Program-made: the position numbers and the translations under genes | Assembly: GCA_964619675.1 (NCBI GenBank) | Contig: CAZUEO010000005.1 | Span: forward strand, 15,162 to 79,161 | Direction of reading: 5' to 3' | DNA from: an uncultured Planctomycetaceae bacterium | Lineage (GTDB): Bacteria; Planctomycetota; Phycisphaerae; Sedimentisphaerales; UBA12454 | DNA length: 64,000 nucleotides | The notes under the pieces: generated by a model | What the model was told of the DNA's origin: nothing | What the model saw: only the letters and a program-made list of their open reading frames with translations | Database searches by the model: none | Shown here: positions 4,499 through 34,449 of the stretch, piece after piece | Layout of the letters: each line of letters starts with the position of its first letter | Position numbering within the stretch: the first letter of the stretch is position 1

Positions 4499-5308
4499 TT
4501 ATGCACCGACGTGAGCCTTGAGATGGTGCTGTTTTTCATTGATTTTGCAGAGTTTGCACTTGCAGATGCCGACGCTTTTAAGATGGCTCGAACCTGTATA
4601 GTCCCGCGTTTCAACGAGAGAAGCGCCCTTTGCCTTCATTTTTCGGAAAGCGACGTCGGCCTTTCGCCTGTTGTGTGTGCCGACCGCGTCGGCGAAAATG
4701 GTTACCTTTTTGCCTCTCTGCAGAAGTCCCAGAACGGTTGCTGCCACGGCGCCTTCGGCCATGGCGCCGATAACGATAAATTCATCGGCTTTCAGCTCCG
4801 ACAGGAATCTTTCGGCGCGAGGCTCGTCAAATGGGTCATTACATCTTTTTTGCAGAATTATCTGGTCGTAATATACGAATATATCTCTTTGCAGGTCGGT
4901 GCAGCCATCGGCTGCGAGCACTACTCTCCTGTTGCGAAGCGTATATGATATTTTTCGCTGGCCGTTGGTGCCGATGACGCAGAACTCGTCGCCGTTTTTA
5001 CCGGCTTTGCACAGATTGGTTGAGACCACCCTGAGGTTTTTGGCTCTCGCCCAGGCCATAGCTCTTCTTATGTTCATAAGCACTCTGCGATGATTTCTGA
5101 TGCAGGCAGTGCCGCTGGCTATGAAAAAGTCCTTTTGTGTGTCAACATCTATCAAAACACGCCTTCGTCTTATTGTTATGGGCCTTATCATTTTCCCTGT
5201 TCCTAACCCCAAAAGCAGCTTTTTAGTTTCTACGCTATACGGTTCAAGAGGTTTCTCAAAATCTGTATCGAAATTTACCAGACTTGACTTGAGATTGTTT
5301 TGGGGCAC
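4499..5308 (-). CDS. Isochorismatase/cysteine-hydrolase-family protein; the start is uncertain (GTG at 5308 or ATG at about 5191)
   Basis: VLIDVDTQKDFF matches the family's D-containing strand 1, and ILQKRCNDPF matches the K region. The IVIGAMAEGAVAATV region aligns by eye to the nucleophile strand. Confidence 0.6.
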   Translation of the reverse strand: MPQNNLKSSLVNFDTDFEKPLEPYSVETKKLLLGLGTGKMIRPITIRRRRVLIDVDTQKDFFIASGTACIRNHRRVLMNIRRAMAWARAKNLRVVSTNLCKAGKNGDEFCVIGTNGQRKISYTLRNRRVVLAADGCTDLQRDIFVYYDQIILQKRCNDPFDEPRAERFLSELKADEFIVIGAMAEGAVAATVLGLLQRGKKVTIFADAVGTHNRRKADVAFRKMKAKGASLVETRDYTGSSHLKSVGICKCKLCKINEKQHHLKAHVGA

Positions 5309-8089: not shown

Positions 8090-10810
8090 ATGGCTAAGAT
8101 TGAGAAAATGGTTTACTTCTTTGGCGCAGGCAAGGCCGAAGGAAACGCAAAAATGAAGGAGCTCCTCGGCGGCAAGGGAGCAAACCTTGCCGAGATGGCA
8201 AGTCTCGGCGTGCCTGTACCTCCGGGCTTTACAATCACGACAGAGGTATGCACTTATTTTTATCAGAATGAAAGAAAATACCCTGCTCAATTGAAGGTCG
8301 ATGTTGAAAAAGCACTTGCCGGAGTTGAGCAGATAATGGATAAAAAGTTCGGCGATGCCGCCAACCCGCTGCTGGTTTCCGTAAGAAGTGGTGCCAGAAG
8401 CAGTATGCCGGGAATGATGGAGACTGTTCTTAACGTCGGTCTTACTGAAAAAACTATCCCCGGTCTTGTCGCTCTTAGCGGCGATGAGAGATTTGTTTAT
8501 GATGCGTATCGCAGATTGATGATGATGTACAGCGATGTCGTTATGGAAAAGGCGGCAGGGATAGAACCTGCCGACGATATGGGTATCCGCAAGCAGCTTG
8601 AAAGAGTAATGAACGAATTGAAGAAACAAAAAGGCTGCAAAAGCGATGTTGACCTGACCACAGAGGACCTAAAAAACCTGTGCGCCCAATTTAAGGTAAA
8701 AATTAAAGAAGTGCTTAAAAAGGAATTTCCTGATGACCCTATGAAGCAGCTCTGGGGCGGCATCGAAGCGGTCTTTGCATCGTGGGACGGCAAAAGGGCT
8801 ATATCGTACAGGAAGATTGAAGGCATTCCCGATGACTGGGGCACCGCGGTAAACGTTCAGACAATGGTATTCGGCAATATGGGCCAGGATAGCGCTACGG
8901 GTGTGGCCTTTACGCGAAATCCAGGCAACGGTGAGAATAAATTTTACGGCGAATATCTTGTCAACGCACAGGGTGAAGATGTCGTGGCAGGTACAAGGAC
9001 ACCGGCGCCAATAAACGAATCCTCAAAAAGTGAGCATAATAAAGACGAAGTTTCTCTCGAAAAGAAGATGCCCGCGGCTTACAAGGAGTTGTTCGCAATA
9101 CAAGATAAGCTTGAAGAGCACTACCGCGATATGCTTGATATTGAATTTACTATTGAAAACAGCAAGCTGTTTATGCTGCAGTGCCGCGTCGGCAAACGCA
9201 ACGGGCCGGCCGCGGTGCGGATGGCCGTCGATATGCTGAAAGAAAAACTCATCACAAACCAAATGGCTTGTTTACGTGTAACTCCCGCACAGATCGATGA
9301 GCTTTTGCATCCGATTATCGACCCTGTTGCGGAAAGACAGCACAAGGCTGTTGCAAAAGGTCTGCCTGCAGGTCCCGGCGGAGCGAAAGGACAAATCGTT
9401 TTCTCCGCACCCGATGCGGTCGCATGGGCAAAGCAGGGCAAAAAGGTTATTCTCGTCCGCGAAGAAACTAACCCGGAAGACGTTGAAGGTATGCGAGCCG
9501 CTCAGGCTATCTTGACTGCTCGTGGTGGAATGACAAGCCATGCGGCACTGGTTGCAAGAGGCTGGGGCAGGTGCTGCATCGTCGGATGCGGCGTGCTGGA
9601 AGTCGAATATGCTAAAAAGCAGCTTCATGTTGACGGCAAGGTGCTTAAGGAAGGCGACTGGATTACGCTTAACGGCACAAAAGGGCTTGTTTATGAAGGT
9701 CAATTGCCGATGATAGATGCTTCACGGGAAAACAAAGAGCTCGATGACTTCTTGAAAATTTGTGATTCGGTAAGGAAACTCGGCATTCGCACCAATGCTG
9801 AAACGCCTGCCGATGCCGCAAAGGCAAGACAGTTCGGCGCAGAAGGTATAGGCTTATTCAGAACGGAGCATATGTTCTACGGCAAAGGTTCGGATGAAGC
9901 GTTGTTTTTGCTTCGCAAGATGATTATGAGCAATACCAAAGAAGAAAGGCAGAAAGCGATTGACCAGCTTTATCCGTTCGTCAAGAAGGATATAAAAGGC
10001 ACACTTGAGGCGATGGACAATCTGCCGGTGGTAATAAGGCTGCTTGACCCGCCGCTGCATGAGTTTGTACCGCAGGACGCCCAAAAACGGGCAGGCCTTG
10101 CGAAAGAACTTAATATCAACGCCGATGAGTTCAATAAACGTGCTGATTCACTGCACGAATCCAACCCGATGATGGGTCACCGCGGCGTAAGGCTGGGCAT
10201 TACTTATCCCGAAGTAAGCAGGATGCAGATAAAGGCTGTTTTTGAAGCTGCCGCCGAACTGATTAAGGCAGGTAAAAATCCGTATCCTGAAATAATGATA
10301 CCGGTTGTTTGTGATGTGAAGGAAATTGAATTCCAGCTACAAATTGCCAAAGAAGTTTACGCCGAGGTCTGCAAAAAGACCGGCGTTAAAGAAATTCGTC
10401 ATATGTTCGGTACAATGATTGAAATTCCTCGAGCGGCGCTTGTAGCCGGCCAAATTGCCGAAGTTGCCGAATTTTTCAGCTACGGCACAAACGACCTTAC
10501 TCAAATGGGCTTTGGTTTTTCACGCGACGACATTGGCGGTTTTCTGCCGGATTACGTCAGCAAGGGCATTTTGCCGGGCGACCCGTTCCAGAGCATTGAC
10601 CAGGTCGGCATCGGCGAATTAATTAAAATAGGTATCGAGCGCGGCAGGAAAGCCCGCAAAAATCTTGAGGTAGGCATCTGCGGCGAACACGGCGGCGACC
10701 CTGCAAGTATTGAATTTTGCCACAAAGTTGGTATGGATTATGTGTCCTGCTCGCCTTTCAGAGTGCCGATTGCAAGGCTCGCAGCAGCCCAGGCGGCGGT
10801 TAAAAATTGA
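8090..10810 (+). CDS. ppdK: Pyruvate, phosphate dikinase
   Basis: The 906-aa protein has the phosphohistidine swivel motif GGMTSHAALVARGWG and a PEP-utiliser C-terminal TIM barrel (GTNDLTQ). Confidence 0.95.
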   Translation: MAKIEKMVYFFGAGKAEGNAKMKELLGGKGANLAEMASLGVPVPPGFTITTEVCTYFYQNERKYPAQLKVDVEKALAGVEQIMDKKFGDAANPLLVSVRSGARSSMPGMMETVLNVGLTEKTIPGLVALSGDERFVYDAYRRLMMMYSDVVMEKAAGIEPADDMGIRKQLERVMNELKKQKGCKSDVDLTTEDLKNLCAQFKVKIKEVLKKEFPDDPMKQLWGGIEAVFASWDGKRAISYRKIEGIPDDWGTAVNVQTMVFGNMGQDSATGVAFTRNPGNGENKFYGEYLVNAQGEDVVAGTRTPAPINESSKSEHNKDEVSLEKKMPAAYKELFAIQDKLEEHYRDMLDIEFTIENSKLFMLQCRVGKRNGPAAVRMAVDMLKEKLITNQMACLRVTPAQIDELLHPIIDPVAERQHKAVAKGLPAGPGGAKGQIVFSAPDAVAWAKQGKKVILVREETNPEDVEGMRAAQAILTARGGMTSHAALVARGWGRCCIVGCGVLEVEYAKKQLHVDGKVLKEGDWITLNGTKGLVYEGQLPMIDASRENKELDDFLKICDSVRKLGIRTNAETPADAAKARQFGAEGIGLFRTEHMFYGKGSDEALFLLRKMIMSNTKEERQKAIDQLYPFVKKDIKGTLEAMDNLPVVIRLLDPPLHEFVPQDAQKRAGLAKELNINADEFNKRADSLHESNPMMGHRGVRLGITYPEVSRMQIKAVFEAAAELIKAGKNPYPEIMIPVVCDVKEIEFQLQIAKEVYAEVCKKTGVKEIRHMFGTMIEIPRAALVAGQIAEVAEFFSYGTNDLTQMGFGFSRDDIGGFLPDYVSKGILPGDPFQSIDQVGIGELIKIGIERGRKARKNLEVGICGEHGGDPASIEFCHKVGMDYVSCSPFRVPIARLAAAQAAVKN

Positions 10811-10811
10811 T

Positions 10812-10832
10812 TTGAGATTTCAAATTTGAAAT
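10812..10832. repeat. Heptanucleotide tandem array (ttgagat ttcaaat ttgaaat), YTSARAT family
   Basis: Three contiguous 7-nt units lie between the ppdK stop and tRNA-His. The unit family is the same as the arrays around the 4HB gene at 31.9-32.6 kb. Confidence 0.7.
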
Positions 10833-23351: not shown

Positions 23352-26282
23352 TTATAACAGGCCGCAGGCCTTGGCCAAGATTTTAATCGGGTGTTCGACT
23401 TTTTTGCCGGTTATATGTTCAATCTGCATTTTGCAGGTTGAGCATTCTGTTAAAACGACATCTGCTCCTGATTTTTCTATTTTTTCTGCCAGTTTCCTGC
23501 CGATTTGCATTGAAAGCTCGTAATTTTTCTTTTGCATCCCGAACGTGCCCGCTATCCCGCAGCATCCGCCGTCAAGCTCTTTTACGTCAATCCCCGCAAG
23601 CTCTTTTAAAACCTTTATTGACGTGGGTTTATCTCCCAATGCAAGAAGATGGCAGGGCGTATGATGAACAAAAACGTTACCGTTTAGCCGTCGCCGGAAC
23701 GGCGATGAGTCATTCCCGCGTAAGCAGGAATCCAGTTTATTTTGGTTCATTAAGTTTTTCAGATATTCAAAAAGCTCATACGTATTTTCCGAAACCATCT
23801 TTGCTTCACTGCTATCTATAAAAAACCGCAAATCTTCTTTAAGACACAAGGCCGCGCTAGGCTCGGAGCAGACAATTTTATAACCCTGCCTTACGGCCTC
23901 GGACAGAGATTGAACATTATATTCTAAATCTTTTTTACTTGTTTTTATGTCGCCGTAAACAATGGCAGGTAGCGGCGCAGGCCTTTGTTTGGGAATAGTT
24001 ACATCGATATTATTGAATCTTAAAAATTTTATAACGGCAAAGCCAAGTTCGTGGTCGTTATAATTAACAAAGGTATCCGTAAAATACGCAACCTTATCGA
24101 CAGGGTTTTGTAATTTAGGCTGCTCTGCTAAATATTTGTTTGCTTTTCTTATAAAAGTCGAGAAGCCGAATTTCGGCATTTTTCTTCTTTTATCTATGCC
24201 TGTTAAAATTTGCATAATCCATCTGGCAGGCGCAAGGCTCATAAAAATATTGCTCAGCGGCGCAAAAGCAGAGGCGAGCATACTCATATAGCGGTTGGAA
24301 GCCAAAATCTTTGCTGTGCGGCTCTTTGTCAATTTCGTGCGGACTTCCATCATCATTTTTGGAACATCCACACCCGAAGGGCAATCAATCACGCAAGCCC
24401 TGCAATTCAGGCAGGTTGCGAGAATTTCTCTGAATTTCTTCGATTCTAAATCCTGCTCTGTCAGAATTCCCTTTGCCCAGGCGCTGAGCAGATTTGCTCT
24501 TGCGCGAGAAGAAAACATCTCATCTCCTGTTGCACGAAACACAGGACACATCCGCAAGCCCTCTTCATTACTTCGGCAAACCCCGCAGCCGCTGCATTGA
24601 ACAAGCTCAAACTTAAATTCGTCAGGCTTAAAATTAAGTTTTGTCTTTACTCTCTCGTCGATAATTTTATTTTTGCCGCGCAGGTCCTGTGTCATTATAT
24701 CGGTTCTGTCGCTGATGATTTTGCCCGGGTTGAGAATATTCGAAGGGTCAAAGATTTTCTTTATCTGTCTTAAAATTTCATAATATTCATTGCCGAACTG
24801 TTTCCTGATAAATGCCGCTCGCACCAGGCCGTCGGCATGTTCGCCGCTTATCGAGCCGCCCAGCGACCAGGCAAGCGAGAAAACCTCATCGGCTATCTGT
24901 GTCATTTTTTTAACATCGTCGGGCTTTGACAAATCCAGATAAGGCCTTATATGCAGTTCGCCGTCGCCCGCATGGCCGTAATAGGCCATATCAACTTCGT
25001 ATTTTCTGCCGATTTTCTCAAGCCCCCTCACATAGTCGGCCAGCCTCGTATTCTCAACGGAAACATCCTCAACGAAGGCAACAGGCTGTTTCAAGCCCTT
25101 TACCCTGCTTAAAAGCGGCACCGCATCCTTTCGGCATTTCCACAACCTCTTTTGCACGGCAGGCTCGAAGATGGTTGTCTTGTTGAACGCAAGAGAACTG
25201 ACCGCCAAAATAGTTTTTCCAATTTTGTCTTTAACTTCCGGCACCGTCTGGCCTGAATGCTCGACAAGCAGACTTGCAGCCGAGACAGGATTGAGAATAT
25301 TGCGATACTGCTCGAAGGCGTCTCTTGCGATTTTAATCAGTCTGCTGTCCATCAGCTCGCAGGCGTCGGCGCCGCAATTGACAATCAGCGGCACTGCTTT
25401 AGCCGTTTTCTCAAGCGAATCGAATTCAAACTGCACTACTGCTTTGACCTGCTCCGCATCAACCGTCCGCAGCGTAATTTCAGTAAAAACCGCCAGTGTG
25501 CCTTCAGAACCTGCGAGAAGTTTGGCCATATCAATTTTGTTGCCCTGAACAATCTCTGCGATATTGTATCCGCTGTGGCTGCGTTTTGTTTTCGGCTGAG
25601 CCTTTTCAATAATCGAAGCATTTGAATTCAGCAGTTCAAAACATTTTTGCGAAATGGTTAGCCCCAACCCCTGTGGTCGGGAGTTTAGCTCAACATTATT
25701 TACAAATTCAGCAGCCGTACCGTCCGCAAGAACCGCCTTTATTTTTTCAACATACTGGGCGATGTAACCATATTTTAGTGAGTGTGAACCGGTAGCGTTA
25801 TTTGCGACAACGCCGCCTGCTGTAGCGCGGTTGCTGCTTGACGGGTCCGGCCCGATTTTTTTGCCGAACTTCGCAAGGAAACTATTAACCTCGTCAAGCA
25901 CAACGCCCGGCTGGCAGACTACAGTGCTTACATCGGTGCTTGCGCCGATAATCTTGTTCATATAGCGGGTCGTATCGAGCATAATGCCGCTCGTTAGCGA
26001 CTCTCCCGCAAGGCCGCTGCCCGCCCCGCGAGCAACGACAGGTATATTATTGCGATAAGCGTATCTTACAACAATAGCAACGTCGTCTTCATTTTTGGGC
26101 GCAACGACGCAAAGCGGGATTATCTGGTAAATGCTCGCATCGGTGCTGAACGCCGCGCGCGTAAAAATATCAGCCAAACAATCGCCCGCTATCAATTGCG
26201 AAATTTCTTTGGCAATCTGCTGCGGTGCTGAAGAACTTTTGACAGGTCTGTTCATTTGACTTTCATTATAGTTTATTTTCAT
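23352..26282 (-). CDS. YdiJ-like FAD-linked oxidase fused to 4Fe-4S and CCG (GlcF/HdrD-like) domains
   Basis: The N-terminal FAD_binding_4 region (RGAGSGLAGES), two ferredoxin-type Cys clusters (CSGCGVCRS, CLNCRACVIDCP) and a C-terminal CCGIAGTFG motif are present. The protein is 976 aa. Confidence 0.85.
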   Translation of the reverse strand: MKINYNESQMNRPVKSSSAPQQIAKEISQLIAGDCLADIFTRAAFSTDASIYQIIPLCVVAPKNEDDVAIVVRYAYRNNIPVVARGAGSGLAGESLTSGIMLDTTRYMNKIIGASTDVSTVVCQPGVVLDEVNSFLAKFGKKIGPDPSSSNRATAGGVVANNATGSHSLKYGYIAQYVEKIKAVLADGTAAEFVNNVELNSRPQGLGLTISQKCFELLNSNASIIEKAQPKTKRSHSGYNIAEIVQGNKIDMAKLLAGSEGTLAVFTEITLRTVDAEQVKAVVQFEFDSLEKTAKAVPLIVNCGADACELMDSRLIKIARDAFEQYRNILNPVSAASLLVEHSGQTVPEVKDKIGKTILAVSSLAFNKTTIFEPAVQKRLWKCRKDAVPLLSRVKGLKQPVAFVEDVSVENTRLADYVRGLEKIGRKYEVDMAYYGHAGDGELHIRPYLDLSKPDDVKKMTQIADEVFSLAWSLGGSISGEHADGLVRAAFIRKQFGNEYYEILRQIKKIFDPSNILNPGKIISDRTDIMTQDLRGKNKIIDERVKTKLNFKPDEFKFELVQCSGCGVCRSNEEGLRMCPVFRATGDEMFSSRARANLLSAWAKGILTEQDLESKKFREILATCLNCRACVIDCPSGVDVPKMMMEVRTKLTKSRTAKILASNRYMSMLASAFAPLSNIFMSLAPARWIMQILTGIDKRRKMPKFGFSTFIRKANKYLAEQPKLQNPVDKVAYFTDTFVNYNDHELGFAVIKFLRFNNIDVTIPKQRPAPLPAIVYGDIKTSKKDLEYNVQSLSEAVRQGYKIVCSEPSAALCLKEDLRFFIDSSEAKMVSENTYELFEYLKNLMNQNKLDSCLRGNDSSPFRRRLNGNVFVHHTPCHLLALGDKPTSIKVLKELAGIDVKELDGGCCGIAGTFGMQKKNYELSMQIGRKLAEKIEKSGADVVLTECSTCKMQIEHITGKKVEHPIKILAKACGLL

Positions 26283-26916
26283 TATTTTGTCTATGCCTGC
26301 GGCGCGGCTTTTCTGCCCTGCTTCTCAAATCCTCCTGCAGCAGATAGCTTCTGAATGGCTCATTTTTGAAACACGGGAAGTTCAGCGGCGCGTATTCTTC
26401 TTCCTGCTGCTGCAGCACAAATTTATCGCGTGCCATAGCCGCGACGATTCGGTTATGCGGGCTGTCAGGCAGTTGGAATGATAATTGTTTGCCGCCGCTT
26501 AGCTGATATGTTGCCTGGCAGTATTTTCCACACTTCCTGTTCTTTAGGCAGACACCGATAAATCCTGTTCCGTTTTTGCATTTCTTATTCAGGTTATTTT
26601 GTCTTTTGGTTACAATCCGCAGATTTTCTCTTCGGTTATCAAGCGGGTCTCTGTTCCTGTGGTCGACGAGCTGGCCTTCTTTGGCATTCATTACGAACCG
26701 TGAAAGCCGCAGGTGCCTTTGTGGCGGTTTATCTCCGACGATAATTACCGGATAGCCTTCGCTTGCGATTTGGATTGTCTTGATATCGCCGTTGTATTTT
26801 CTGTAAGGCGGTTCGTGTCGGGTGCTGAAAATTTTGTAATAGATATCCGCATCGACTTTTACGAGTCGGCCTCTGACTTTGAACATCAGGTAATCGATTT
26901 TGCATTTAGTTGCCAT
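26266..26916 (-). CDS. Free-standing HNH endonuclease with a C-terminal AP2-like DNA-binding domain
   Basis: VDHRNRDPLDNRRENLRIVTKRQNNLN is an HNH_3 motif, followed by GFIGVCLKN..KYCQATYQL..FQLP (AP2-like). The ATG at 26916 is preceded by GGAGAG, and the upstream 28 codons of the tracked ORF were rejected. Confidence 0.75.
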   Translation of the reverse strand: MATKCKIDYLMFKVRGRLVKVDADIYYKIFSTRHEPPYRKYNGDIKTIQIASEGYPVIIVGDKPPQRHLRLSRFVMNAKEGQLVDHRNRDPLDNRRENLRIVTKRQNNLNKKCKNGTGFIGVCLKNRKCGKYCQATYQLSGGKQLSFQLPDSPHNRIVAAMARDKFVLQQQEEEYAPLNFPCFKNEPFRSYLLQEDLRSRAEKPRRRHRQNNENKL

Positions 26917-29280: not shown

Positions 29281-31908
29281 CTAATTCAATATCACATCAT
29301 TAAGAGTTTTTACGGGGGCTTTAAAACTGACATCCTTAAATTGCTCGAAATGCTTTTTGCCGCACTTGATTTTTTGTTGTTCTTCTTGTCGCAATTCCTC
29401 TATGCGATTTGTCCCTTTGGTTTCTGCAACAAAATAAACTTTCTTATCTCCTTCATAAACCAGTGCCCAATCAGGATTATATGTACCGAGCGGAGTTTCT
29501 ATCTTAAACCAGAAAGGCAGTTTGAGATAAAACTTGATATCATCTCTTTTTTCACAGTCTTTTGCAAATTCCTTTTCCGTATAGCTTTCTATTTGAACAT
29601 AATCATAAACGGTTTTTTCTTTTTTCATAACTTCGAATAAATCGTCAAGGTATCCGTAAAGTTCTTCACTGTCAAAAAGCCTCTGTTCCCAGTATGAATC
29701 TGCTATCTTTTCATATTTAATCCCATCAACCATCATTTCATTTAGAACCTCGTTTATCTCGACACAAACTTTATCCATAAACTGCTGAGGGTTGATAAAT
29801 ACATCATCAATTTTGCCCGATTCAAGTAAAATGCGGCAAATGGTATCACGGGTTAATCTGGTCTTGTTCTGAATGTATGAAAGAATATCCGGGACGGTTT
29901 CTATATCGCCATATAAATCCCTACTGGATTGTGTTCTGAGTTCTGCCGTAACAGCGGTTTTATCAATTTCAATATCGGCTTTGGTCCTTATCAGTTTTGG
30001 CTTTGTGATTTTAATATCACCTATTTTTTTGCCTGCCCTCTTTATCAATTCATTGGTATCATAATCAACGCTGTAATGGGTCTTCTGCTTAATTTTATCC
30101 CATAAGAGTTTAAAATTCTCATCAAGCTGTAAATTCTTTTGCAGCTTTATTTGTTTTTTCTTCTTTTTGTTCTTAATCCTGCCGCCGAAACTAACGCCGC
30201 ATTCTTCTTCAATCTCAGACTGTAGGGCTTTTGCAAAATCTTCATAATATTCATTCGCTATAACGGTAAGAATATTTATGTTTTCATCAAATACTCTTTT
30301 ACCATCCTGATTTACAGGCAGTCTCATACCTCTGCCGATCTCCTGTCTTTTCTTTAGTGTTGATTGTGTTTCATTCAGTGTGCATATTTGAAATACGTTT
30401 GGATTATCCCAGCCTTCGCGTAAGGCCGAATGTGAAAATATAAATCTCAAAGGTTCGTTCACATCAAGAAGCCGTTCTTTGTCTTTCATTATCAGTTGAT
30501 ACGCACTATCATCGTCTATGGTATCCCTCCCTTCGCGAGAATCCTTCCAGTTTCCTTTTTTATCCTGCGCGAAATAACCATTGTGAGCCTGCCGGGCCTT
30601 ATAATTCAGCAACCCTTTATATTTGTTTTGGTTTCTTGCCTTTTCGTAAAATTCTTCAAACCATAAAGCTATTTTGCCTTTAACAGGATTTTCATTTTCA
30701 TAATTGCGGTAATTAGCCACTCTGTCGATAAAGAACAGTGTTAAAACTTTTATCCCCTTATCTTTTAATCGTTTTTCCTTTTCAAAATGATTATTTATTG
30801 TGCTTTCAATTTGATACCTCATTATCTCATCGGTCAGCCCGCCTTGTTTTTGCCCGACATTAATAGTTATACCGTTATTAAATGTTATGCCCTCCCTGTC
30901 TATTTCACTTACAATAAATCCCTCTTTATACAGGTCCCTTTTGTTTGACTTTTCATAAAGGTCGTCGCCAACCGAAACATTCACATCTTTTTTCACGACC
31001 CCCTCGTTTGTATTAACATCTATTTTCAGCTTTGCGATTATTTTTCTAGTTTGCGGTTTTATGCTTTTTACTTCAATATACGCCAGGTTGAAATTATCTG
31101 CCTCTGTTATCCCATCAACCTCAATTCTTTTGACAAGCCCCAAATCATAAGCCCTTACGGGGTCAAGCCGGTAAATTTCATTGTATCTTACCGTATGTGT
31201 TGCGGAATATCGAAGCGTGCATAATGGATTAAGATTTGCTATCGCCTGCCTCCTGATATCCGTCTCCATATTTTGAGGCTCATCTACGATAACTATCGGT
31301 CTTGTCGCCTTGATAAACTCTGCCGGCACTCCCCAGTCGCTTTGCTGAAAAAATATGTTTCCTGCCCTTGTGAACTGGTCTATATTCATTACCATTATCT
31401 GCAAAGTGTTGGTCGTTGCAAAATTTCTGGCAAGCCCTCTTTTTTTAGGGTCAAATTCGTGGTAATCCAGTGTCGGCTTTTCATAGAGCATATCAAAATG
31501 CTCTTTTGTTATTTCAAGGTTCTTTAATACGCCTTCTTTAATCGCCAGGCTCGGCACAACAATAATAAACTTCTTAAAACCGTAATTTTTATGTAATTCG
31601 TGTATCGTCCGCAGATAAACATAAGTTTTGCCCGTGCCGGTTTCCATCTCTATTGAAAAATGAAAACCATCGAGTTTATTTGAGACTTCTATTTCATTTC
31701 TCTGCTGAATAATTTGAAGATTTTTTAATATTGTTTCATTGTCAAGGATTAAATTATTCGCAACAACGCTCAAAAATGTTCCGCCAACTGATGTAGCCTT
31801 TGCATAGGCAAAATCGCTCGCCCCCGCAGGTTGACCCGCAAATATTTCAACCGTTGCATTTATAGCATCTTTCTGAAATTCCTGATTTGCGTCAAATTGA
31901 AGTTTCAT
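29281..31908 (-). CDS. res: Type III restriction endonuclease, Res subunit
   Basis: The MKLQFDANQEFQKDAI N-terminus, helicase motif I METGTGKT, motif II IVIVDEPQNM and a C-terminal PD-(D/E)xK region (NPDWALV..FVAETKG) are present. The ATG at 31908 is preferred over 31938. Confidence 0.88.
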   Translation of the reverse strand: MKLQFDANQEFQKDAINATVEIFAGQPAGASDFAYAKATSVGGTFLSVVANNLILDNETILKNLQIIQQRNEIEVSNKLDGFHFSIEMETGTGKTYVYLRTIHELHKNYGFKKFIIVVPSLAIKEGVLKNLEITKEHFDMLYEKPTLDYHEFDPKKRGLARNFATTNTLQIMVMNIDQFTRAGNIFFQQSDWGVPAEFIKATRPIVIVDEPQNMETDIRRQAIANLNPLCTLRYSATHTVRYNEIYRLDPVRAYDLGLVKRIEVDGITEADNFNLAYIEVKSIKPQTRKIIAKLKIDVNTNEGVVKKDVNVSVGDDLYEKSNKRDLYKEGFIVSEIDREGITFNNGITINVGQKQGGLTDEIMRYQIESTINNHFEKEKRLKDKGIKVLTLFFIDRVANYRNYENENPVKGKIALWFEEFYEKARNQNKYKGLLNYKARQAHNGYFAQDKKGNWKDSREGRDTIDDDSAYQLIMKDKERLLDVNEPLRFIFSHSALREGWDNPNVFQICTLNETQSTLKKRQEIGRGMRLPVNQDGKRVFDENINILTVIANEYYEDFAKALQSEIEEECGVSFGGRIKNKKKKKQIKLQKNLQLDENFKLLWDKIKQKTHYSVDYDTNELIKRAGKKIGDIKITKPKLIRTKADIEIDKTAVTAELRTQSSRDLYGDIETVPDILSYIQNKTRLTRDTICRILLESGKIDDVFINPQQFMDKVCVEINEVLNEMMVDGIKYEKIADSYWEQRLFDSEELYGYLDDLFEVMKKEKTVYDYVQIESYTEKEFAKDCEKRDDIKFYLKLPFWFKIETPLGTYNPDWALVYEGDKKVYFVAETKGTNRIEELRQEEQQKIKCGKKHFEQFKDVSFKAPVKTLNDVILN

Positions 31909-31913
31909 TTTGC

Positions 31914-31944
31914 ACCAATTTGAAATTTGAAATCTCAAATCTGA
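31914..31944. repeat. Direct repeat, left copy (core 27-mer atttgaaatttgaaatctcaaatctga at 31918-31944)
   Basis: It is identical over 27 nt, and 30/31 over the extended match, to 32468-32498. It is itself built of 7-nt units (31921-31948), and AATCTCA-aatc-TGAGATT forms a hairpin at 31931-31948. Confidence 0.9.
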
Positions 31945-31946
31945 GA

Positions 31947-32450
31947 TTATTTATCTTCTGGATAATCCTGCGGCCTGGCCTTTCTCAAAGTTTCCTGAAT
32001 TTGTTTTTCAAACGCATCTGCACGTCTTTTCGCTTCATATATGCCGCGTGTATTTTCATTTAAATGCCGTTGTCCTTTTATATCGCTGTTTTGCAGGCTG
32101 TCCGCCCATCCGCGTATCTGCCGTGAGCACGATTCCGCTTTTGATTTGAGATCTGAAATCTGAGATTTCAGATGTGCCGCTTCTGGAAACAGTTCTGTAA
32201 AAAGCAGCATTGAGCGTGTTTCTCCGCACGAGCCGCGGGAGATATATAAGAAGGCGAGCAGTTCCGCCGTTGAGCCGCGCTCAAATCCTTCTGCTATATT
32301 ATTCGAAACTGAAAGCGAAGAACGACGCATCTGGTCGCGAAGGTCCCCGGGCTGATTGAAGAACTTGTCTTTAGTCAGCTCATACACTCCTTTGGCCAGT
32401 TCTATCGCTAACTGCCACACCGGTAAATCTTCAAACCGCTCATATTTCAT
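31947..32450 (-). CDS. Four-helix-bundle protein (23S rRNA-intervening-sequence protein family), copy 1, with an extended C-terminus
   Basis: FEDLPVWQLAIELAKGVYELT..LRDQMRRSSLSVSNNIAEGFERGS..FLYISRGSCGETRS matches the family signature. It is inserted between mod and res. Confidence 0.85.
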   Translation of the reverse strand: MKYERFEDLPVWQLAIELAKGVYELTKDKFFNQPGDLRDQMRRSSLSVSNNIAEGFERGSTAELLAFLYISRGSCGETRSMLLFTELFPEAAHLKSQISDLKSKAESCSRQIRGWADSLQNSDIKGQRHLNENTRGIYEAKRRADAFEKQIQETLRKARPQDYPEDK

Positions 32451-32467: not shown

Positions 32468-32574
32468 ACCTATTTGAAATTTGAAATCTCAAATCTGATA
32501 TCCGTTTATGAAATCTGAAACTTCAAATCTGCTATTTTTTAGTTTTCTGAAATTTGAGATTTTAAATCTGAGAT
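32468..32574. repeat. Direct repeat, right copy (32468-32498), plus two more 4-unit heptamer arrays (32509-32536 and 32547-32574)
   Basis: The arrays read tgaaatt tgaaatc tcaaatc tgatatc / tgaaatc tgaaact tcaaatc tgctatt / ctgaaat ttgagat tttaaat ctgagat. Together they fill the mod-4HB intergenic gap. Confidence 0.9.
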
Positions 32575-32577
32575 TCG

Positions 32578-34449
32578 TCATATTACTTTAAATTCTATTC
32601 TTTCGCCTTCCATCTGCAGAGCCGTATTCGTCTTTAACCGGTCGTTATTACTAAAAGCAATATCAAGGCAGGTAAACCTCTGGGGCTTTTCTTTTATAAT
32701 CTTTTCGACGAATTTTTTTGTTATTTTCTCTGCAAGGCAGATAATCTCCATACCGTCCGCAAGACTGAAATAATCAATTGAATCAAAATTTTTCTTTTCA
32801 ATCTTTACATTCAAATCAAATCGGCTGTTTTTAAGAATAATCTCAAAGAGCATATCTTCAACGGCCGCACCCTTTTTCGTATTATCAACGAACATCTTCA
32901 TCTGCTCTTTTAATTGGCCGGCCGTTTTTATATCTTCTCGCCACTGCTTGAAATTACTCTGCTCTAATTTAAAGACCTTAAATCCCAAATCCAATTTGTT
33001 TTTGTCAAATTTGAGATTCCCTTCTATCTCCTTTTTTATCTTTTCCGCCGCCCGCCGGAGCCTTTCCTTGCCTATTTCAGCTATTGTCTTAAAGCCCGCT
33101 TTATATGCCTCGCTGTCTTCTTCGCAAGGCTCTGCCAACTGAACGCAGATAAATTTCCTGTTCCCGCCATCTTCAGCATTCAAAGCCATTACTGCGTGTG
33201 CCGTTGTACAAGACCCGGCAAAAAAATCGAGAACGATATCATCTTCACCTAAGCCTTGTACTAACAGCTCTCTAATTAATTCTGTAGGCTTTGGGAACTC
33301 CATATATCTAGCTTTAAATAATTCTTCTAATTCATTGGTTCCATTTCTTGTATATATATCAGGTGCTATAATCGAAGAATAACCCGTGAACTCGTCATTA
33401 AGTTCAGAAAGAAATATTTTTCTGCGTGGTCTTCCTTTTTGTGACTGCGGCCAGATTATCCTATCTTCTTCAATCAATTTTTGCATGGTGTTTTTATCAT
33501 ATCGCCACCCCATTTTAGGTTTGCCATAATTAATACCAGTCTTGGGATTTATTAAGTCATAATGACAATTAGGCCTTTGTTCTTCCGGCAATAAACCTAC
33601 CATATTTCCGCTTACCCAGTCTCCTCTTGGATCATTGTCTGGATTTTTGTATTGTTCTTTATTTCTTTCTGAACCTCTTATCCTATTTCCTGAAGTTCTC
33701 GTATAAACAAGTACATATTCATGATCGATCGAAACGCCCGTGATATTTCGATTATCTTTATTTTGACGGCTTTTCCAAATAAGTTGCGCAACAAAACTTT
33801 CCTCTCCAAAAATTTCATTCATAATCATTCGCAGGTTATAGACTTCGTTGTCATCGATTGAAACAAAAATAACGCCGTCATCACGGAGCAGATTTCTTGC
33901 CAGAAAAAGTCTCGGATATATCATTGAAAGCCAGTTTGAATGAAAATGGCCTGCATCTTTACTGTTCTTTCGCCAGAAACCGTCTTTTGTAAGTAGTCCT
34001 TCGGCGTCTTTTATCCCTGCCCGCAGTTCGTAATCTTCTTTCTCCTCTTTGAATCTGTCGGGATAAATAAAACTGTCGTTGCCGGTATTATATGGCGGGT
34101 CGATATAAATCATCTTTATTTTGCCGTAATAGGTTTTTTGCAGGACTTTAAGGACCTCTAAATTATCCCCTTCAATAAAAATATTTTCTGAGCTCTGAGA
34201 TTTCAAATCTGAGATTTTCAGTGTTGCTGTCGTGGTTTCTTGTATATGGCGAAAGCACTCGCTTTTTCCCGCCCAGCTTAGGCCGTATCGTTCATTATTT
34301 GTATCGAGTTCTTCGCCGAGTGTTTGTTTTAGTTTGTCTGGGCTGATTTTGCCTTCGGCAAAAATCTCTGGGAAGCGGGATTTGAGCAGTTCCGCAAGTT
34401 CTTTTTGTGGGCTTGCCGAATTGCCGTCTATTTTATGTATCTTTGCCAT
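32578..34449 (-). CDS. mod: Type III DNA methyltransferase, Mod subunit (beta-class N6-adenine)
   Basis: IYIDPPYNTGND (motif IV) lies upstream of VLDFFAGSCTT (motif I). The 623-aa gene is adjacent to res. Confidence 0.88.
   Translation of the reverse strand: MAKIHKIDGNSASPQKELAELLKSRFPEIFAEGKISPDKLKQTLGEELDTNNERYGLSWAGKSECFRHIQETTTATLKISDLKSQSSENIFIEGDNLEVLKVLQKTYYGKIKMIYIDPPYNTGNDSFIYPDRFKEEKEDYELRAGIKDAEGLLTKDGFWRKNSKDAGHFHSNWLSMIYPRLFLARNLLRDDGVIFVSIDDNEVYNLRMIMNEIFGEESFVAQLIWKSRQNKDNRNITGVSIDHEYVLVYTRTSGNRIRGSERNKEQYKNPDNDPRGDWVSGNMVGLLPEEQRPNCHYDLINPKTGINYGKPKMGWRYDKNTMQKLIEEDRIIWPQSQKGRPRRKIFLSELNDEFTGYSSIIAPDIYTRNGTNELEELFKARYMEFPKPTELIRELLVQGLGEDDIVLDFFAGSCTTAHAVMALNAEDGGNRKFICVQLAEPCEEDSEAYKAGFKTIAEIGKERLRRAAEKIKKEIEGNLKFDKNKLDLGFKVFKLEQSNFKQWREDIKTAGQLKEQMKMFVDNTKKGAAVEDMLFEIILKNSRFDLNVKIEKKNFDSIDYFSLADGMEIICLAEKITKKFVEKIIKEKPQRFTCLDIAFSNNDRLKTNTALQMEGERIEFKVI

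What the first reader, a model, noticed from the sequence alone, without database searches (positions are those of the whole stretch)
32142..32176. Heptamer arrays run inside protein-coding sequence (4HB copy 1 and mod) and are translated
The same YTSARAT array family occurs inside the 4HB CDS (32142-32176, encoding ..HLKSQISDLKSK..). It also occurs inside mod (34188-34222, encoding ..LKISDLKSQSSE.., just N-terminal of the methylase core that begins NIFIEGDNLEVLK). A 7-nt DNA period cannot be selected at protein level, because the frame rotates with every unit. The DNA or RNA repeat therefore appears to be primary and the peptide a passenger. In 4HB copy 1 the array marks the point where the roughly 120-aa canonical family fold ends and a roughly 55-aa C-terminal extension begins. 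That pattern suggests the ORF was extended by read-through across a former cassette boundary.
Basis: partly seen in the sequence, partly recalled or inferred. Interest (0 to 1): 0.6.

Follow-up and report, generated by a model that had tools for sequence, protein, structure and literature searches.

The report
Translated heptamer repeats in two genes
A 7-base palindromic DNA repeat that travels with a small four-helix-bundle gene also runs inside that gene and inside a neighbouring methylase gene. There it is read as a 7-residue helical repeat while its DNA letters stay conserved in their own right.

Summary
TYTSARA heptamer arrays lie inside the 4HB gene (32139-32176) and inside mod (34188-34222), and flank the 4HB gene.

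Three 7-nt units make 7 codons, so the array reads in any frame as I-S-D/N-L-K/R-S-Q/E, an amphipathic heptad.

**In 4HB:**
- The array encodes the start of helix 4 (pLDDT 96-98). It does not mark the end of the fold.
- The 167-aa architecture, C-terminal extension included, is conserved in thousands of homologues across phyla. Local read-through is therefore refuted.
- The claim that the DNA matters in itself holds. In 76 homologous loci the array codons are frozen at synonymous sites (Ser TCT then TCA, Lys AAA, D/N xAT).
- This also holds in 23 loci with no other array within 1 kb (p down to 6e-18).
- The central base is C or G, chosen independently at each unit.

**In mod:** the array is a derived, polyphyletic replacement of a conserved linker.

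**Wider pattern:** six 4HB lineages examined each carry a different heptamer.

**Best reading (inferred):** the arrays are cognate cis-sites of an S23p/Avd-like 4HB cassette, about 670 nt here, inserted exactly at the mod/res junction. This is a new variant of IVS-like 4HB elements.

The parts
32139..32176 (-). Internal TYTSARA array of the 4HB gene (4-5 units). It encodes residues 92-104 (AHLKSQISDLKSK), the N-terminal turns of helix 4.
   Evidence: Helix 89-122 at pLDDT 96-98. Synonymous-site constraint.
31947..32450 (-). Four-helix-bundle gene (167 aa; S23p / 23S-rRNA-IVS-protein / Avd-like family), with a fifth C-terminal helix at residues 132-158.
   Evidence: TIGR02436 6.5e-24 and PF05635 4e-25. 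Foldseek matches to 2GSC, 2RLD, 4DWL and 8UB7. Thousands of homologues at 75-95% identity.
34188..34222 (-). TYTSARA array inside mod, encoding residues 77-88 (LKISDLKSQSSE). It replaces the family's conserved PxRxESVDFDxTEN linker.
   Evidence: Coil between strands 75-79 and 90-93.
32578..34449 (-). Type III R-M methyltransferase gene (mod, 623 aa).
   Evidence: PF01555 3.9e-34. PADLOC MTase_III 2.5e-192. Matches to PDB 6K0W and 4ZCF.
32545..32576 (.). Distal upstream array of the cassette. It starts 2 nt after the mod stop codon.
   Evidence: In the MFE fold it pairs with the downstream array.
32468..32531 (.). Two proximal upstream arrays. The one at 32472-32498 is an exact 27-nt direct repeat of 31918-31944.
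31913..31947 (.). Downstream array. It overlaps the 4HB stop codon and ends about 5 nt before the res ATG at 31908.
29281..31908 (-). Type III restriction subunit gene (res). The true start is the ATG at 31908; MKLQFDANQ aligns with the start of the paralogue.
   Evidence: PADLOC REase_III 1.4e-284.
10810..10832 (.). Solo 3-unit TYTSARA array between convergent ppdK and dnaE, with no 4HB gene nearby.

Best explanation
**What it is (shown).** The two tracts belong to a family of tandem palindromic heptamers, unit T-Y-T-S-A-R-A. This family is the private repeat of one widespread lineage of 166-170-aa four-helix-bundle (S23p/Avd-like) genes.

The gene carries a 4-unit array at nt ~280-307 of its own ORF. 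It often has further arrays just before its ribosome-binding site and just after its stop codon. Here the whole module, about 670 nt, sits exactly at the overlapping stop/start (ATGA) of a Type III mod-res pair.

Three units make 7 codons and the unit is its own reverse complement. The array therefore reads in any frame, on either strand, as (I-S-D/N-L-K/R-S-Q/E)n. The only stop risk is TGA.
- In the 4HB protein the array forms the first turns of helix 4.
- In Mod it has replaced a 14-residue linker.

**How it most likely works (inferred).** The arrays are cis-acting nucleic-acid sites read unit by unit. The level is probably double-stranded DNA, because the central base may be C or G but not A or T, and is chosen independently in each unit. 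The sites would serve to control or propagate the cassette.

The internal copy persists because it can serve as binding site and helix-coding sequence at once. The mod copies are stray cognate arrays, captured in frame in a tolerant loop.
For: **Arrays go with this gene lineage**
- Arrays are far above chance.
- 64 of 76 loci from Planctomycetota, Verrucomicrobiota, Desulfobacterota, Acidobacteriota, Omnitrophota and others keep the internal array. 45 of them have 4 units.
- 36 of 74 loci have an upstream array and 37 of 74 a downstream one. Downstream arrays start a median 8 nt after the stop codon.

**Dual constraint on the internal array**
- The peptide HLKS[QE]IS[DN]LKS is conserved in all 120 best hits.
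- Codons are frozen: Lys AAA 109/112, Ser96 TCT 60/68 and Ser99 TCA 61/70, against 7% and 14% for those Ser codons elsewhere in the same genes. D/N is xAT in 60/63.
- Column 93 keeps NAT while the residue varies among H, D, N and Y.
- The same holds in 23 loci without any other array within 1 kb: Fisher p = 6e-18, 6e-18, 4e-5 and 7e-6.
- Leu codons end in C or G in 64/68 and 60/68. C and G are about equally frequent and do not covary.

**Lineage-specific heptamers**
- The three other 4HB genes of this genome carry ACGAGCN, TACGCTA and TYTCGAT arrays.
- A second 4HB in L044 carries AGTGGAT, and one in L146 carries ATTAGTC.

**Structure.** The fold equals the XCC0516 and BT_0352 pentamers and Avd, which is seen in DGR ribonucleoprotein entries.

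**Insertion site**
- The empty site is in the paralogous mod-res on contig C10 (GTAATATGAAACT). The filled site is here.
- The same mod-4HB-res order occurs in L089.

**Mod.** Array alleles are polyphyletic: 5 changes on the tree, at least 4 of them forced.
Against: - No binding has been shown, and no enzyme for movement is encoded in the cassette.
- Solved S23p and Avd proteins are pentamers. That symmetry does not obviously fit a two-fold palindromic unit.
- About 20 solo arrays per genome in two 6-Mb planctomycetes have no 4HB gene nearby, so the arrays may serve another, host-level reader.
- One genome with an array-bearing mod (G306) lacks this 4HB lineage in its 1.8-Mb assembly.
- The constraint to C/G at the centre could also come from a stability requirement in RNA helices.
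- Lineage-specific heptamers were seen in only six cases here.
Confidence: 0.45

Rival explanations
1. RNA-level, IVS-like element. In the mod-4HB-res transcript the flanking arrays pair into a long stem that RNase III cuts, as in 23S rRNA intervening sequences. The internal array would be an alternative pairing partner that tunes processing or translation.
For: - The MFE and centroid folds of the 706-nt cassette RNA pair the distal upstream array with the downstream array. They also give a 19-bp upstream hairpin and a 10-bp internal hairpin (z = -2.2).
- In the Coxiella IVS, which carries the same gene family, RNase III cuts at the first heptamer (PMC4990558).
- A G:C pair at the centre of each AU-rich unit would stabilise helices.
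Against: - Cognate upstream/downstream flanks are no more complementary than non-cognate ones: centre test 0.10 vs 0.36, and stem score 19.9 vs 22.4, significantly lower.
- Flanks are instead more alike as direct repeats.
- There is no covariation between the C/G centres or with any other column.
- 23 of 74 loci have no flanking array at all, yet keep the internal one.
- Long arrays are often all-C or all-G centred and cannot self-pair.
Confidence: 0.2
2. Slippage-born microsatellite with concerted evolution. The arrays are selfish or neutral simple repeats that spread by slippage and gene conversion. They survive inside ORFs only because they happen to be stop-poor and helix-compatible. Under this reading the nucleotide conservation is homogenisation, not function.
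For: - Copy number varies from 3 to 8 units inside the gene and up to 23 units in the flanks.
- In-frame gain or loss of whole 21-nt heptads is seen (L025, L043, L046, L048, L050).
- Cognate flanks resemble each other as direct repeats.
- Solo arrays are scattered in intergenic DNA.
- Heptamer number varies among Coxiella strains.
Against: - The internal array keeps the pattern at 58-65% protein identity in phyla where no donor array lies within 1 kb.
- The allowed alternatives at the three degenerate positions are the same everywhere: Y, S and R, never W at the centre. Drift plus slippage does not predict this.
Confidence: 0.15
3. Phase-variation switch. The arrays are contingency repeats whose gain or loss of single 7-nt units turns mod (a phasevarion) and the 4HB gene on and off.
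For: - Type III mod genes are the classic phase-variable methylases (modA; abstract of PMC4525171).
- The array sits early in mod, at codons 77-88, in both paralogues of this genome.
- Repeat number differs between homologues.
Against: - The arrays are short (4-5 units) and their units differ from one another, which disfavours slippage.
- Every length variant seen is in frame: 18 or 21 nt.
- 76 of 80 4HB loci are intact through the array.
- The conserved degenerate pattern is not needed for slippage.
Confidence: 0.07
4. The peptide is a pure passenger, and the 4HB ORF was lengthened locally by reading through a former cassette boundary marked by the array.
For: - The canonical family length is about 110-120 aa, and this protein has about 45 extra residues.
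- Arrays do mark cassette ends.
Against: - The family HMM and the model place helix 4 after the array.
- The extension begins at about residue 123, not at the array.
- The whole architecture is conserved across phyla.
Confidence: 0.03

Closest known systems
ORF-bearing intervening sequences of 23S rRNA (Coxiella burnetii / Leptospira S23p IVS; Warrier et al. 2016, PMC4990558)
   Same: - Same protein family (S23p, four-helix bundle).
- Tandem heptamers lie directly beside the ORF, and their copy number varies.
- The element is wedged into a transcribed unit and was proposed to have been mobile.
   Different: - It sits at an mRNA cistron junction (mod/res), not in 23S rRNA helix 45.
- The heptamer is a palindromic AT-rich unit (TYTSARA, not GACAGAT).
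- The flanks are direct rather than inverted repeats.
- One array lies inside the ORF and is translated.
- The ORF is intact and strongly conserved rather than decaying.
Avd, accessory protein of diversity-generating retroelements (PDB 4DWL; DGR RNP 8UB7)
   Same: Same four-helix-bundle fold (TM about 0.76-0.80 to the target). Avd is a nucleic-acid-associated oligomer.
   Different: - There is no reverse transcriptase, template repeat or variable repeat in the locus.
- The only RVT_1 gene of the genome is on another contig.
- Sequence identity is 11-13%.
Phase-variable Type III mod genes (phasevarions)
   Same: A simple-sequence repeat inside the 5' part of a Type III mod ORF.
   Different: - The units are degenerate and few.
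- Only in-frame variants are seen.
- The same repeat also flanks and fills a neighbouring unrelated gene.
Heptameric intergenic repeats of Xanthomonas and Nostoc (GGGNATC / STRR; Rehm et al. 2015, PMC4692102)
   Same: - Tandem 7-nt units with a preferred length of about four units.
- Located between co-oriented ORFs, close to starts and stops.
   Different: - AT-rich and palindromic, so they cannot form G-quadruplexes.
- Tied to a specific protein-coding gene and partly translated.

Membership tests
Four-helix-bundle / 23S rRNA IVS protein family (TIGR02436, PF05635) | Match to the family HMM above the curated cut-off | tested here: met
   TIGR02436 scores 84.2 bits (cut-off 24) over residues 11-119. 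PF05635 scores 88.5 bits (cut-off 33.8).
Four-helix-bundle / 23S rRNA IVS protein family (TIGR02436, PF05635) | Four-helix up-down bundle like XCC0516 / BT_0352 | tested here: met
   The AF2 model has pLDDT 85.5 with helices 10-25, 37-58, 61-86 and 89-122. Foldseek gives 2GSC at TMt 0.82 and 2RLD at 0.84.
Four-helix-bundle / 23S rRNA IVS protein family (TIGR02436, PF05635) | Homopentameric toroid | not testable with these tools
   Only a monomer was modelled.
ORF-bearing 23S rRNA intervening sequence | Located in a 23S rRNA helix | tested here: not met
   It lies between the mod stop and the res start.
ORF-bearing 23S rRNA intervening sequence | Terminal inverted repeats forming a stem cut by RNase III | tested here: inconclusive
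   A closing stem is predicted in this window. Across 22 loci, however, cognate flanks are not more complementary than non-cognate ones, and they resemble direct repeats. Cleavage is not testable here.
ORF-bearing 23S rRNA intervening sequence | Tandem heptamers next to an S23p ORF | tested here: met
   The comparison is with PMC4990558.
DGR Avd | Adjacent reverse transcriptase with template and variable repeats | tested here: not met
   The neighbours are mod and res. The single RVT_1 hit of the genome is on contig C8.
Type III R-M Mod methyltransferase | N6_N4_Mtase domain with DPPY and FxGxG motifs, encoded next to a Res helicase-nuclease | tested here: met
   PF01555 and PADLOC MTase_III match. 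IDPPYNTG and DFFAGSCTT are seen in the translation. Res has ResIII plus RE_endonuc domains.
Phase-variable simple-sequence-repeat switch | Tract of identical units whose number changes out of frame between cells or strains | tested here: not met
   The units differ from one another. All variants among homologues are in frame. Within-population variation could not be examined.

The most novel reading that the evidence does not exclude
Four-helix-bundle (S23p/Avd-like) oligomers are sequence-specific readers of tandem heptanucleotides, and each protein lineage has its own cognate 7-mer. In the TYTSARA lineage the cognate array has been taken into the reading frame. The same 28 bases are then both the protein's binding site and the code for a heptad stretch of its own helix 4. 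This would be a direct correspondence between a DNA heptamer and a protein heptad. It would also let stray arrays be absorbed into other genes such as mod.
Probability: 0.3. Interest if true: 0.85.

Novelty: new variant of a known kind. Interest (0 to 1): 0.62.

Why it matters
- PF05635 proteins are among the commonest small proteins of unknown function in bacteria. They occur in rRNA intervening sequences, R-M and CRISPR loci and DGRs. Heptameric repeats are an unexplained excess in bacterial genomes.
- A strictly conserved, dual-coding array inside one such gene, together with lineage-specific heptamers around others, gives a concrete and cheap test: does the protein bind its own repeat?
- It also shows how a 7-nt repeat can enter and persist in coding sequence. 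Any frame gives an amphipathic heptad.
- This is relevant to gene annotation, to the evolution of linkers and coiled segments, and to the plasticity of Type III R-M operons.

Tried and rejected
**RNA and pairing tests**
- RNA duplex energies of cognate versus non-cognate flanks were uninformative. Open interior loops made them noisy, and they showed no difference.
- A register-based centre-complementarity test and an ungapped stem score gave no support for cognate inverted arms.
- Mutual information between the array's variable bases and the rest of the gene found no partner.

**Homology and distribution searches**
- The mod arrays share only the 28-34-nt array with cassette flanks, not adjoining sequence. 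A cassette-end footprint in mod is therefore not supported.
- A class-level genome sample gave mostly distant Mods, all with the canonical linker.
- No relatives were found in viral contigs.
- The 4HB protein matches nothing in PADLOC.
- A literature search found no description of translated heptamer arrays or of this cassette.

**Incomplete or failed runs**
- Trees for the Mod C-terminal part and the TRD did not finish.

Full report
**1. Observation**

The locus lies on the minus strand in this order:
- mod, 34449..32578: 623 aa, PF01555, PADLOC MTase_III.
- A four-helix-bundle (4HB) gene, 32450..31947: 167 aa, TIGR02436/PF05635.
- res, 31908..29281: ResIII plus RE_endonuc domains, PADLOC REase_III.

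The tract 32176..32139 reads CAT CTG AAA TCT CAG ATT TCA GAT CTC AAA TCA AAA, giving HLKSQISDLKSK. The tract 34222..34188 reads CTG AAA ATC TCA GAT TTG AAA TCT CAG AGC TCA GAA, giving LKISDLKSQSSE, directly before NIFIEGDNLEVLK.

A two-unit YTSARAT pattern with up to 1 mismatch hits 37 times in the window against 2.55 expected. The hits form six clusters:
- one solo array between ppdK and dnaE (10810-10832);
- three arrays in the 127-nt mod-4HB spacer;
- one inside 4HB;
- one on the 4HB stop codon;
- one inside mod.

All five exact arrays of 3 or more units in the 2.23-Mb assembly lie in this window.

**2. Why a 7-nt repeat can be translated**

The unit T-Y-T-S-A-R-A is its own reverse complement as a class. 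Seven is 1 modulo 3, so three successive units are read in the three codon phases. Together they give seven codons: ATY, TSA, RAT, YTS, ARA, TYT, SAR. These encode I, S (or stop when TGA), D/N, L/F, K/R, S/F and Q/E.

Every frame on either strand therefore yields the same 7-residue repeat, with I and L spaced 3 and 4 residues apart, which is an amphipathic heptad.

**3. The 4HB array is a family hallmark, not a local accident**

The 167-aa protein has thousands of homologues. The best 120 are 75-95% identical and nearly all 164-181 aa long. All 120 keep HLKS[QE]IS[DN]LKS and the C-terminal extension (...IKGQRHL...ARPQDYP).

Eighty genomic loci were recovered from Planctomycetota, Verrucomicrobiota, Desulfobacterota, Acidobacteriota, Omnitrophota, Armatimonadota and others.
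- 64 of 76 intact genes carry the array at nt ~280-307, and 45 of these have exactly four units.
- Gene neighbourhoods differ. A 95%-identical copy sits before dprA. Few copies lie near a mod gene.

The family HMM spans residues 11-119. The AlphaFold model (pLDDT 85.5) puts residues 92-103 inside helix 4 (89-122) at pLDDT 96-98, followed by a loop and a fifth helix at 132-158. The model superposes on XCC0516, BT_0352 and Avd over all four helices.

So the array does not mark the end of the fold. The extension is not a local read-through product. The peptide is not a disordered passenger.

**4. The DNA letters are nevertheless selected in their own right**

A codon alignment of 76 genes shows ordinary synonymous diversity everywhere except codons 93-102.

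| Position | Observed in array | Same codon elsewhere in these genes |
|---|---|---|
| Lys95 and Lys102 | AAA in 109/112 | 59% |
| Ser96 | TCT in 60/68 | 7% |
| Ser99 | TCA in 61/70 | 14% |
| Residue 100 (D/N) | GAT or AAT in 60/63 | 45% for xAT |
| Leu94, Leu101 | end in C or G in 64/68 and 60/68 | not tabulated for the full set |
| Column 93 | NAT in 69 of 75, residue varying H/D/N/Y | not applicable |

The amino-acid alternatives Q/E and D/N are exactly the S and R positions of the heptamer.

The same freeze holds in the 23 loci that have no other array within 1 kb, mostly non-planctomycete:
- Fisher p = 6e-18 for TCT;
- p = 6e-18 for TCA;
- p = 4e-5 for AAA;
- p = 7e-6 for xAT.

Conversion from neighbouring arrays therefore cannot explain it.

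The free centres take C or G about equally and independently. They do not covary with each other or with any other column. Length variants are in-frame heptads: one lost in L025, and one to four gained in L043, L046, L048 and L050.

**5. The cassette and its insertion site**

The genome holds a paralogous mod-res pair on contig C10 without a 4HB gene. There mod and res overlap as GTAATATGAAACT.

In the window the same junction reads ...GTAATATGA, then 669 nt, then ATGAAACTT..., so ATGA is present on both sides. The insert consists of arrays, a purine-rich leader, the 4HB ORF and a terminal array.

The same mod-4HB-res order occurs in L089. Another locus, L091, has a 133-aa gene plus a ThsB-TIR gene at this junction instead, without arrays.

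Across 74 loci with enough flank:
- 36 have an upstream array, often ending 12-21 nt before the ATG;
- 37 have a downstream array, starting a median 8 nt after the stop;
- 22 have both, and 23 have neither.

Cognate flanks are not more complementary than non-cognate ones. They are more alike as direct repeats: 19.7 vs 13.8, p = 0.016. Examples are 27 nt exact here, 74 nt in L003, and a duplicated array-plus-leader in L001. This fits duplication at integration or recombination into a pre-existing array, rather than a designed hairpin.

The MFE fold of this particular cassette does close it with a stem between the distal upstream and downstream arrays. That is possible because any two arrays of palindromic units can pair.

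**6. The mod array**

Most Mod homologues have TTATLK-PxRxESVDFDxTEN-IFIEGDN, encoded with ordinary codon diversity. Six of 118 full-length homologues have I[SP]DLKSQ(ISEENRNS)xN instead. These include the window gene and its C10 paralogue.

Their DNA is a TYTSARA array, nearly identical between genes that are only 63-68% identical in protein.

On a tree of the flanking N-terminal and core region, the six fall in one Phycisphaerae-type clade but are scattered within it. Five changes are needed, at least four of them forced by well-supported branches. This implies repeated capture or short-patch exchange.

Homology to cassette flanks is limited to the array itself. The canonical sequence offers near-matches at both borders, CTSAAA and GAAAAY.

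In the Mod model the segment is a coil with one helical turn, between strands 75-79 and 90-93, at pLDDT 74-83. In the solved H. pylori Mod (6K0W) the equivalent stretch is a different, longer linker.

**7. Arrays beyond the cassette, and other heptamers**

Two 6-Mb planctomycete genomes carry about 15-25 TYTSARA array sites each, with none for the reversed control pattern. The 20 sites examined are AT-rich islands between long ORFs, with no 4HB gene nearby.

Conversely, every other 4HB gene examined has its own, different period-7 arrays:

| 4HB gene | Heptamer |
|---|---|
| Contig C1 (this genome) | ACGAGCN; the 3' array runs into the ORF tail |
| Contig C6 (this genome) | TACGCTA, at least 19 copies |
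| Contig C15 (this genome) | TYTCGAT |
| Second 4HB in L044 | AGTGGAT, inverted arms; adjacent to a TYTSARA-type gene |
| L146 | ATTAGTC |

With the TYTSARA lineage itself, that makes six lineages and six heptamers.

**8. Mechanism**

Shown:
- The array is a dual-coding element, under both peptide and nucleotide constraint.
- It belongs to a gene module that occupies different operon junctions in different phyla.

Inferred:
- The arrays are cis-sites read unit by unit.
- Three features point to recognition of double-stranded DNA with local two-fold symmetry, or at least to a sequence reader rather than a fixed RNA fold: the centre must be a G:C pair in either orientation; each unit varies independently; the family is closed under reverse complement.
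Its relatives are toroidal pentamers, and Avd sits in a ribonucleoprotein.

I put this at about 0.45. The rivals are:
- an IVS-like RNase III stem, 0.2;
- a slippage/conversion microsatellite without function, 0.15;
- phase variation, 0.07;

**9. Relation to what is known**

In print, the closest case is the Coxiella 23S rRNA IVS. There an S23p ORF is preceded by 2-3 GACAGAT heptamers and RNase III cuts at the first repeat (PMC4990558). Heptameric intergenic repeats have been described without a linked gene (PMC4692102).

Earlier notes of this scan report heptamer-armed 4HB cassettes in many genomes, and first-stage sightings of an internal DLKSQISNLKS copy. I used them as leads only.

What is added here:
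- the heptamer-to-heptad logic;
- quantitative proof of nucleotide-level selection on the internal array, independent of neighbouring arrays;
- the C/G-centre rule without covariation;
- the direct-repeat rather than inverted-repeat relation of the flanks in this lineage;
- the exact empty and filled mod/res site;
- the polyphyletic replacement of a conserved Mod linker.

No transcript or population read data could be consulted.

Noticed in passing
G000 contig C10:54423-58948 (outside the window): A second Type III mod-res pair (Mod 68%, Res 85% identical) has overlapping stop/start and no 4HB gene. Its mod still carries a TYTSARA array at the same position (SSDLKSKISEEDKNS). A third, distant mod lies on C20.
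   Followed up: partly
G000 contigs C1:157948-158199, C6:51472-51735, C15:40055-40384: Three other 4HB genes are each flanked by a different heptamer: ACGAGCN, TACGCTA (at least 19 copies, interrupted by an assembly gap of Ns) and TYTCGAT. In the C1 gene the 3' array is translated as the protein's C-terminal tail.
   Followed up: partly
window 10810-10832: A solo 3-unit array begins at the last base of the ppdK stop codon, between convergent ppdK and dnaE.
   Followed up: no
G000 C11:35282-35312 and C48:4134-4171: Two intergenic arrays on different contigs share the same right flank (...TTTGAAATTTCAGAAAAAACGCCGC). This suggests a larger repeated element.
   Followed up: no
L091:4052-4964: In another metagenomic mod-res pair, the junction holds a 133-aa unknown gene plus a ThsB-like TIR gene instead of a 4HB gene, without heptamer arrays. 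The mod/res junction seems to be a general landing site for small genes.
   Followed up: no
L003:3880-3990 and 4505-4610; L007 flanks: The 4HB gene is bracketed by a 74-nt direct repeat that combines heptamers with a GC-rich hairpin (CCCGCC...GGCGGG). A related motif is present in L007.
   Followed up: no
L044:2618-3645: There are several gene-less hairpins of inverted AGTGGAT arrays, and a distant 4HB gene enclosed by the same arms. They lie immediately upstream of the TYTSARA-type 4HB gene.
   Followed up: partly
L081:6784-7452, L093:8548-9161, L094:5245-5694: HNH_3/AP2-type endonuclease genes lie a few kb from 4HB cassettes or array-bearing mod genes in unrelated contigs. The first-stage notes list one in this window at 26266-26916.
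   Followed up: no
G000 C20:34028-34055 and C20:21920-21940: Weaker TYTSARA-like tracts lie inside long ORFs (678 and 566 aa) and read KISNFRFQ and SKFQISNFKL. They may be further translated arrays.
   Followed up: no
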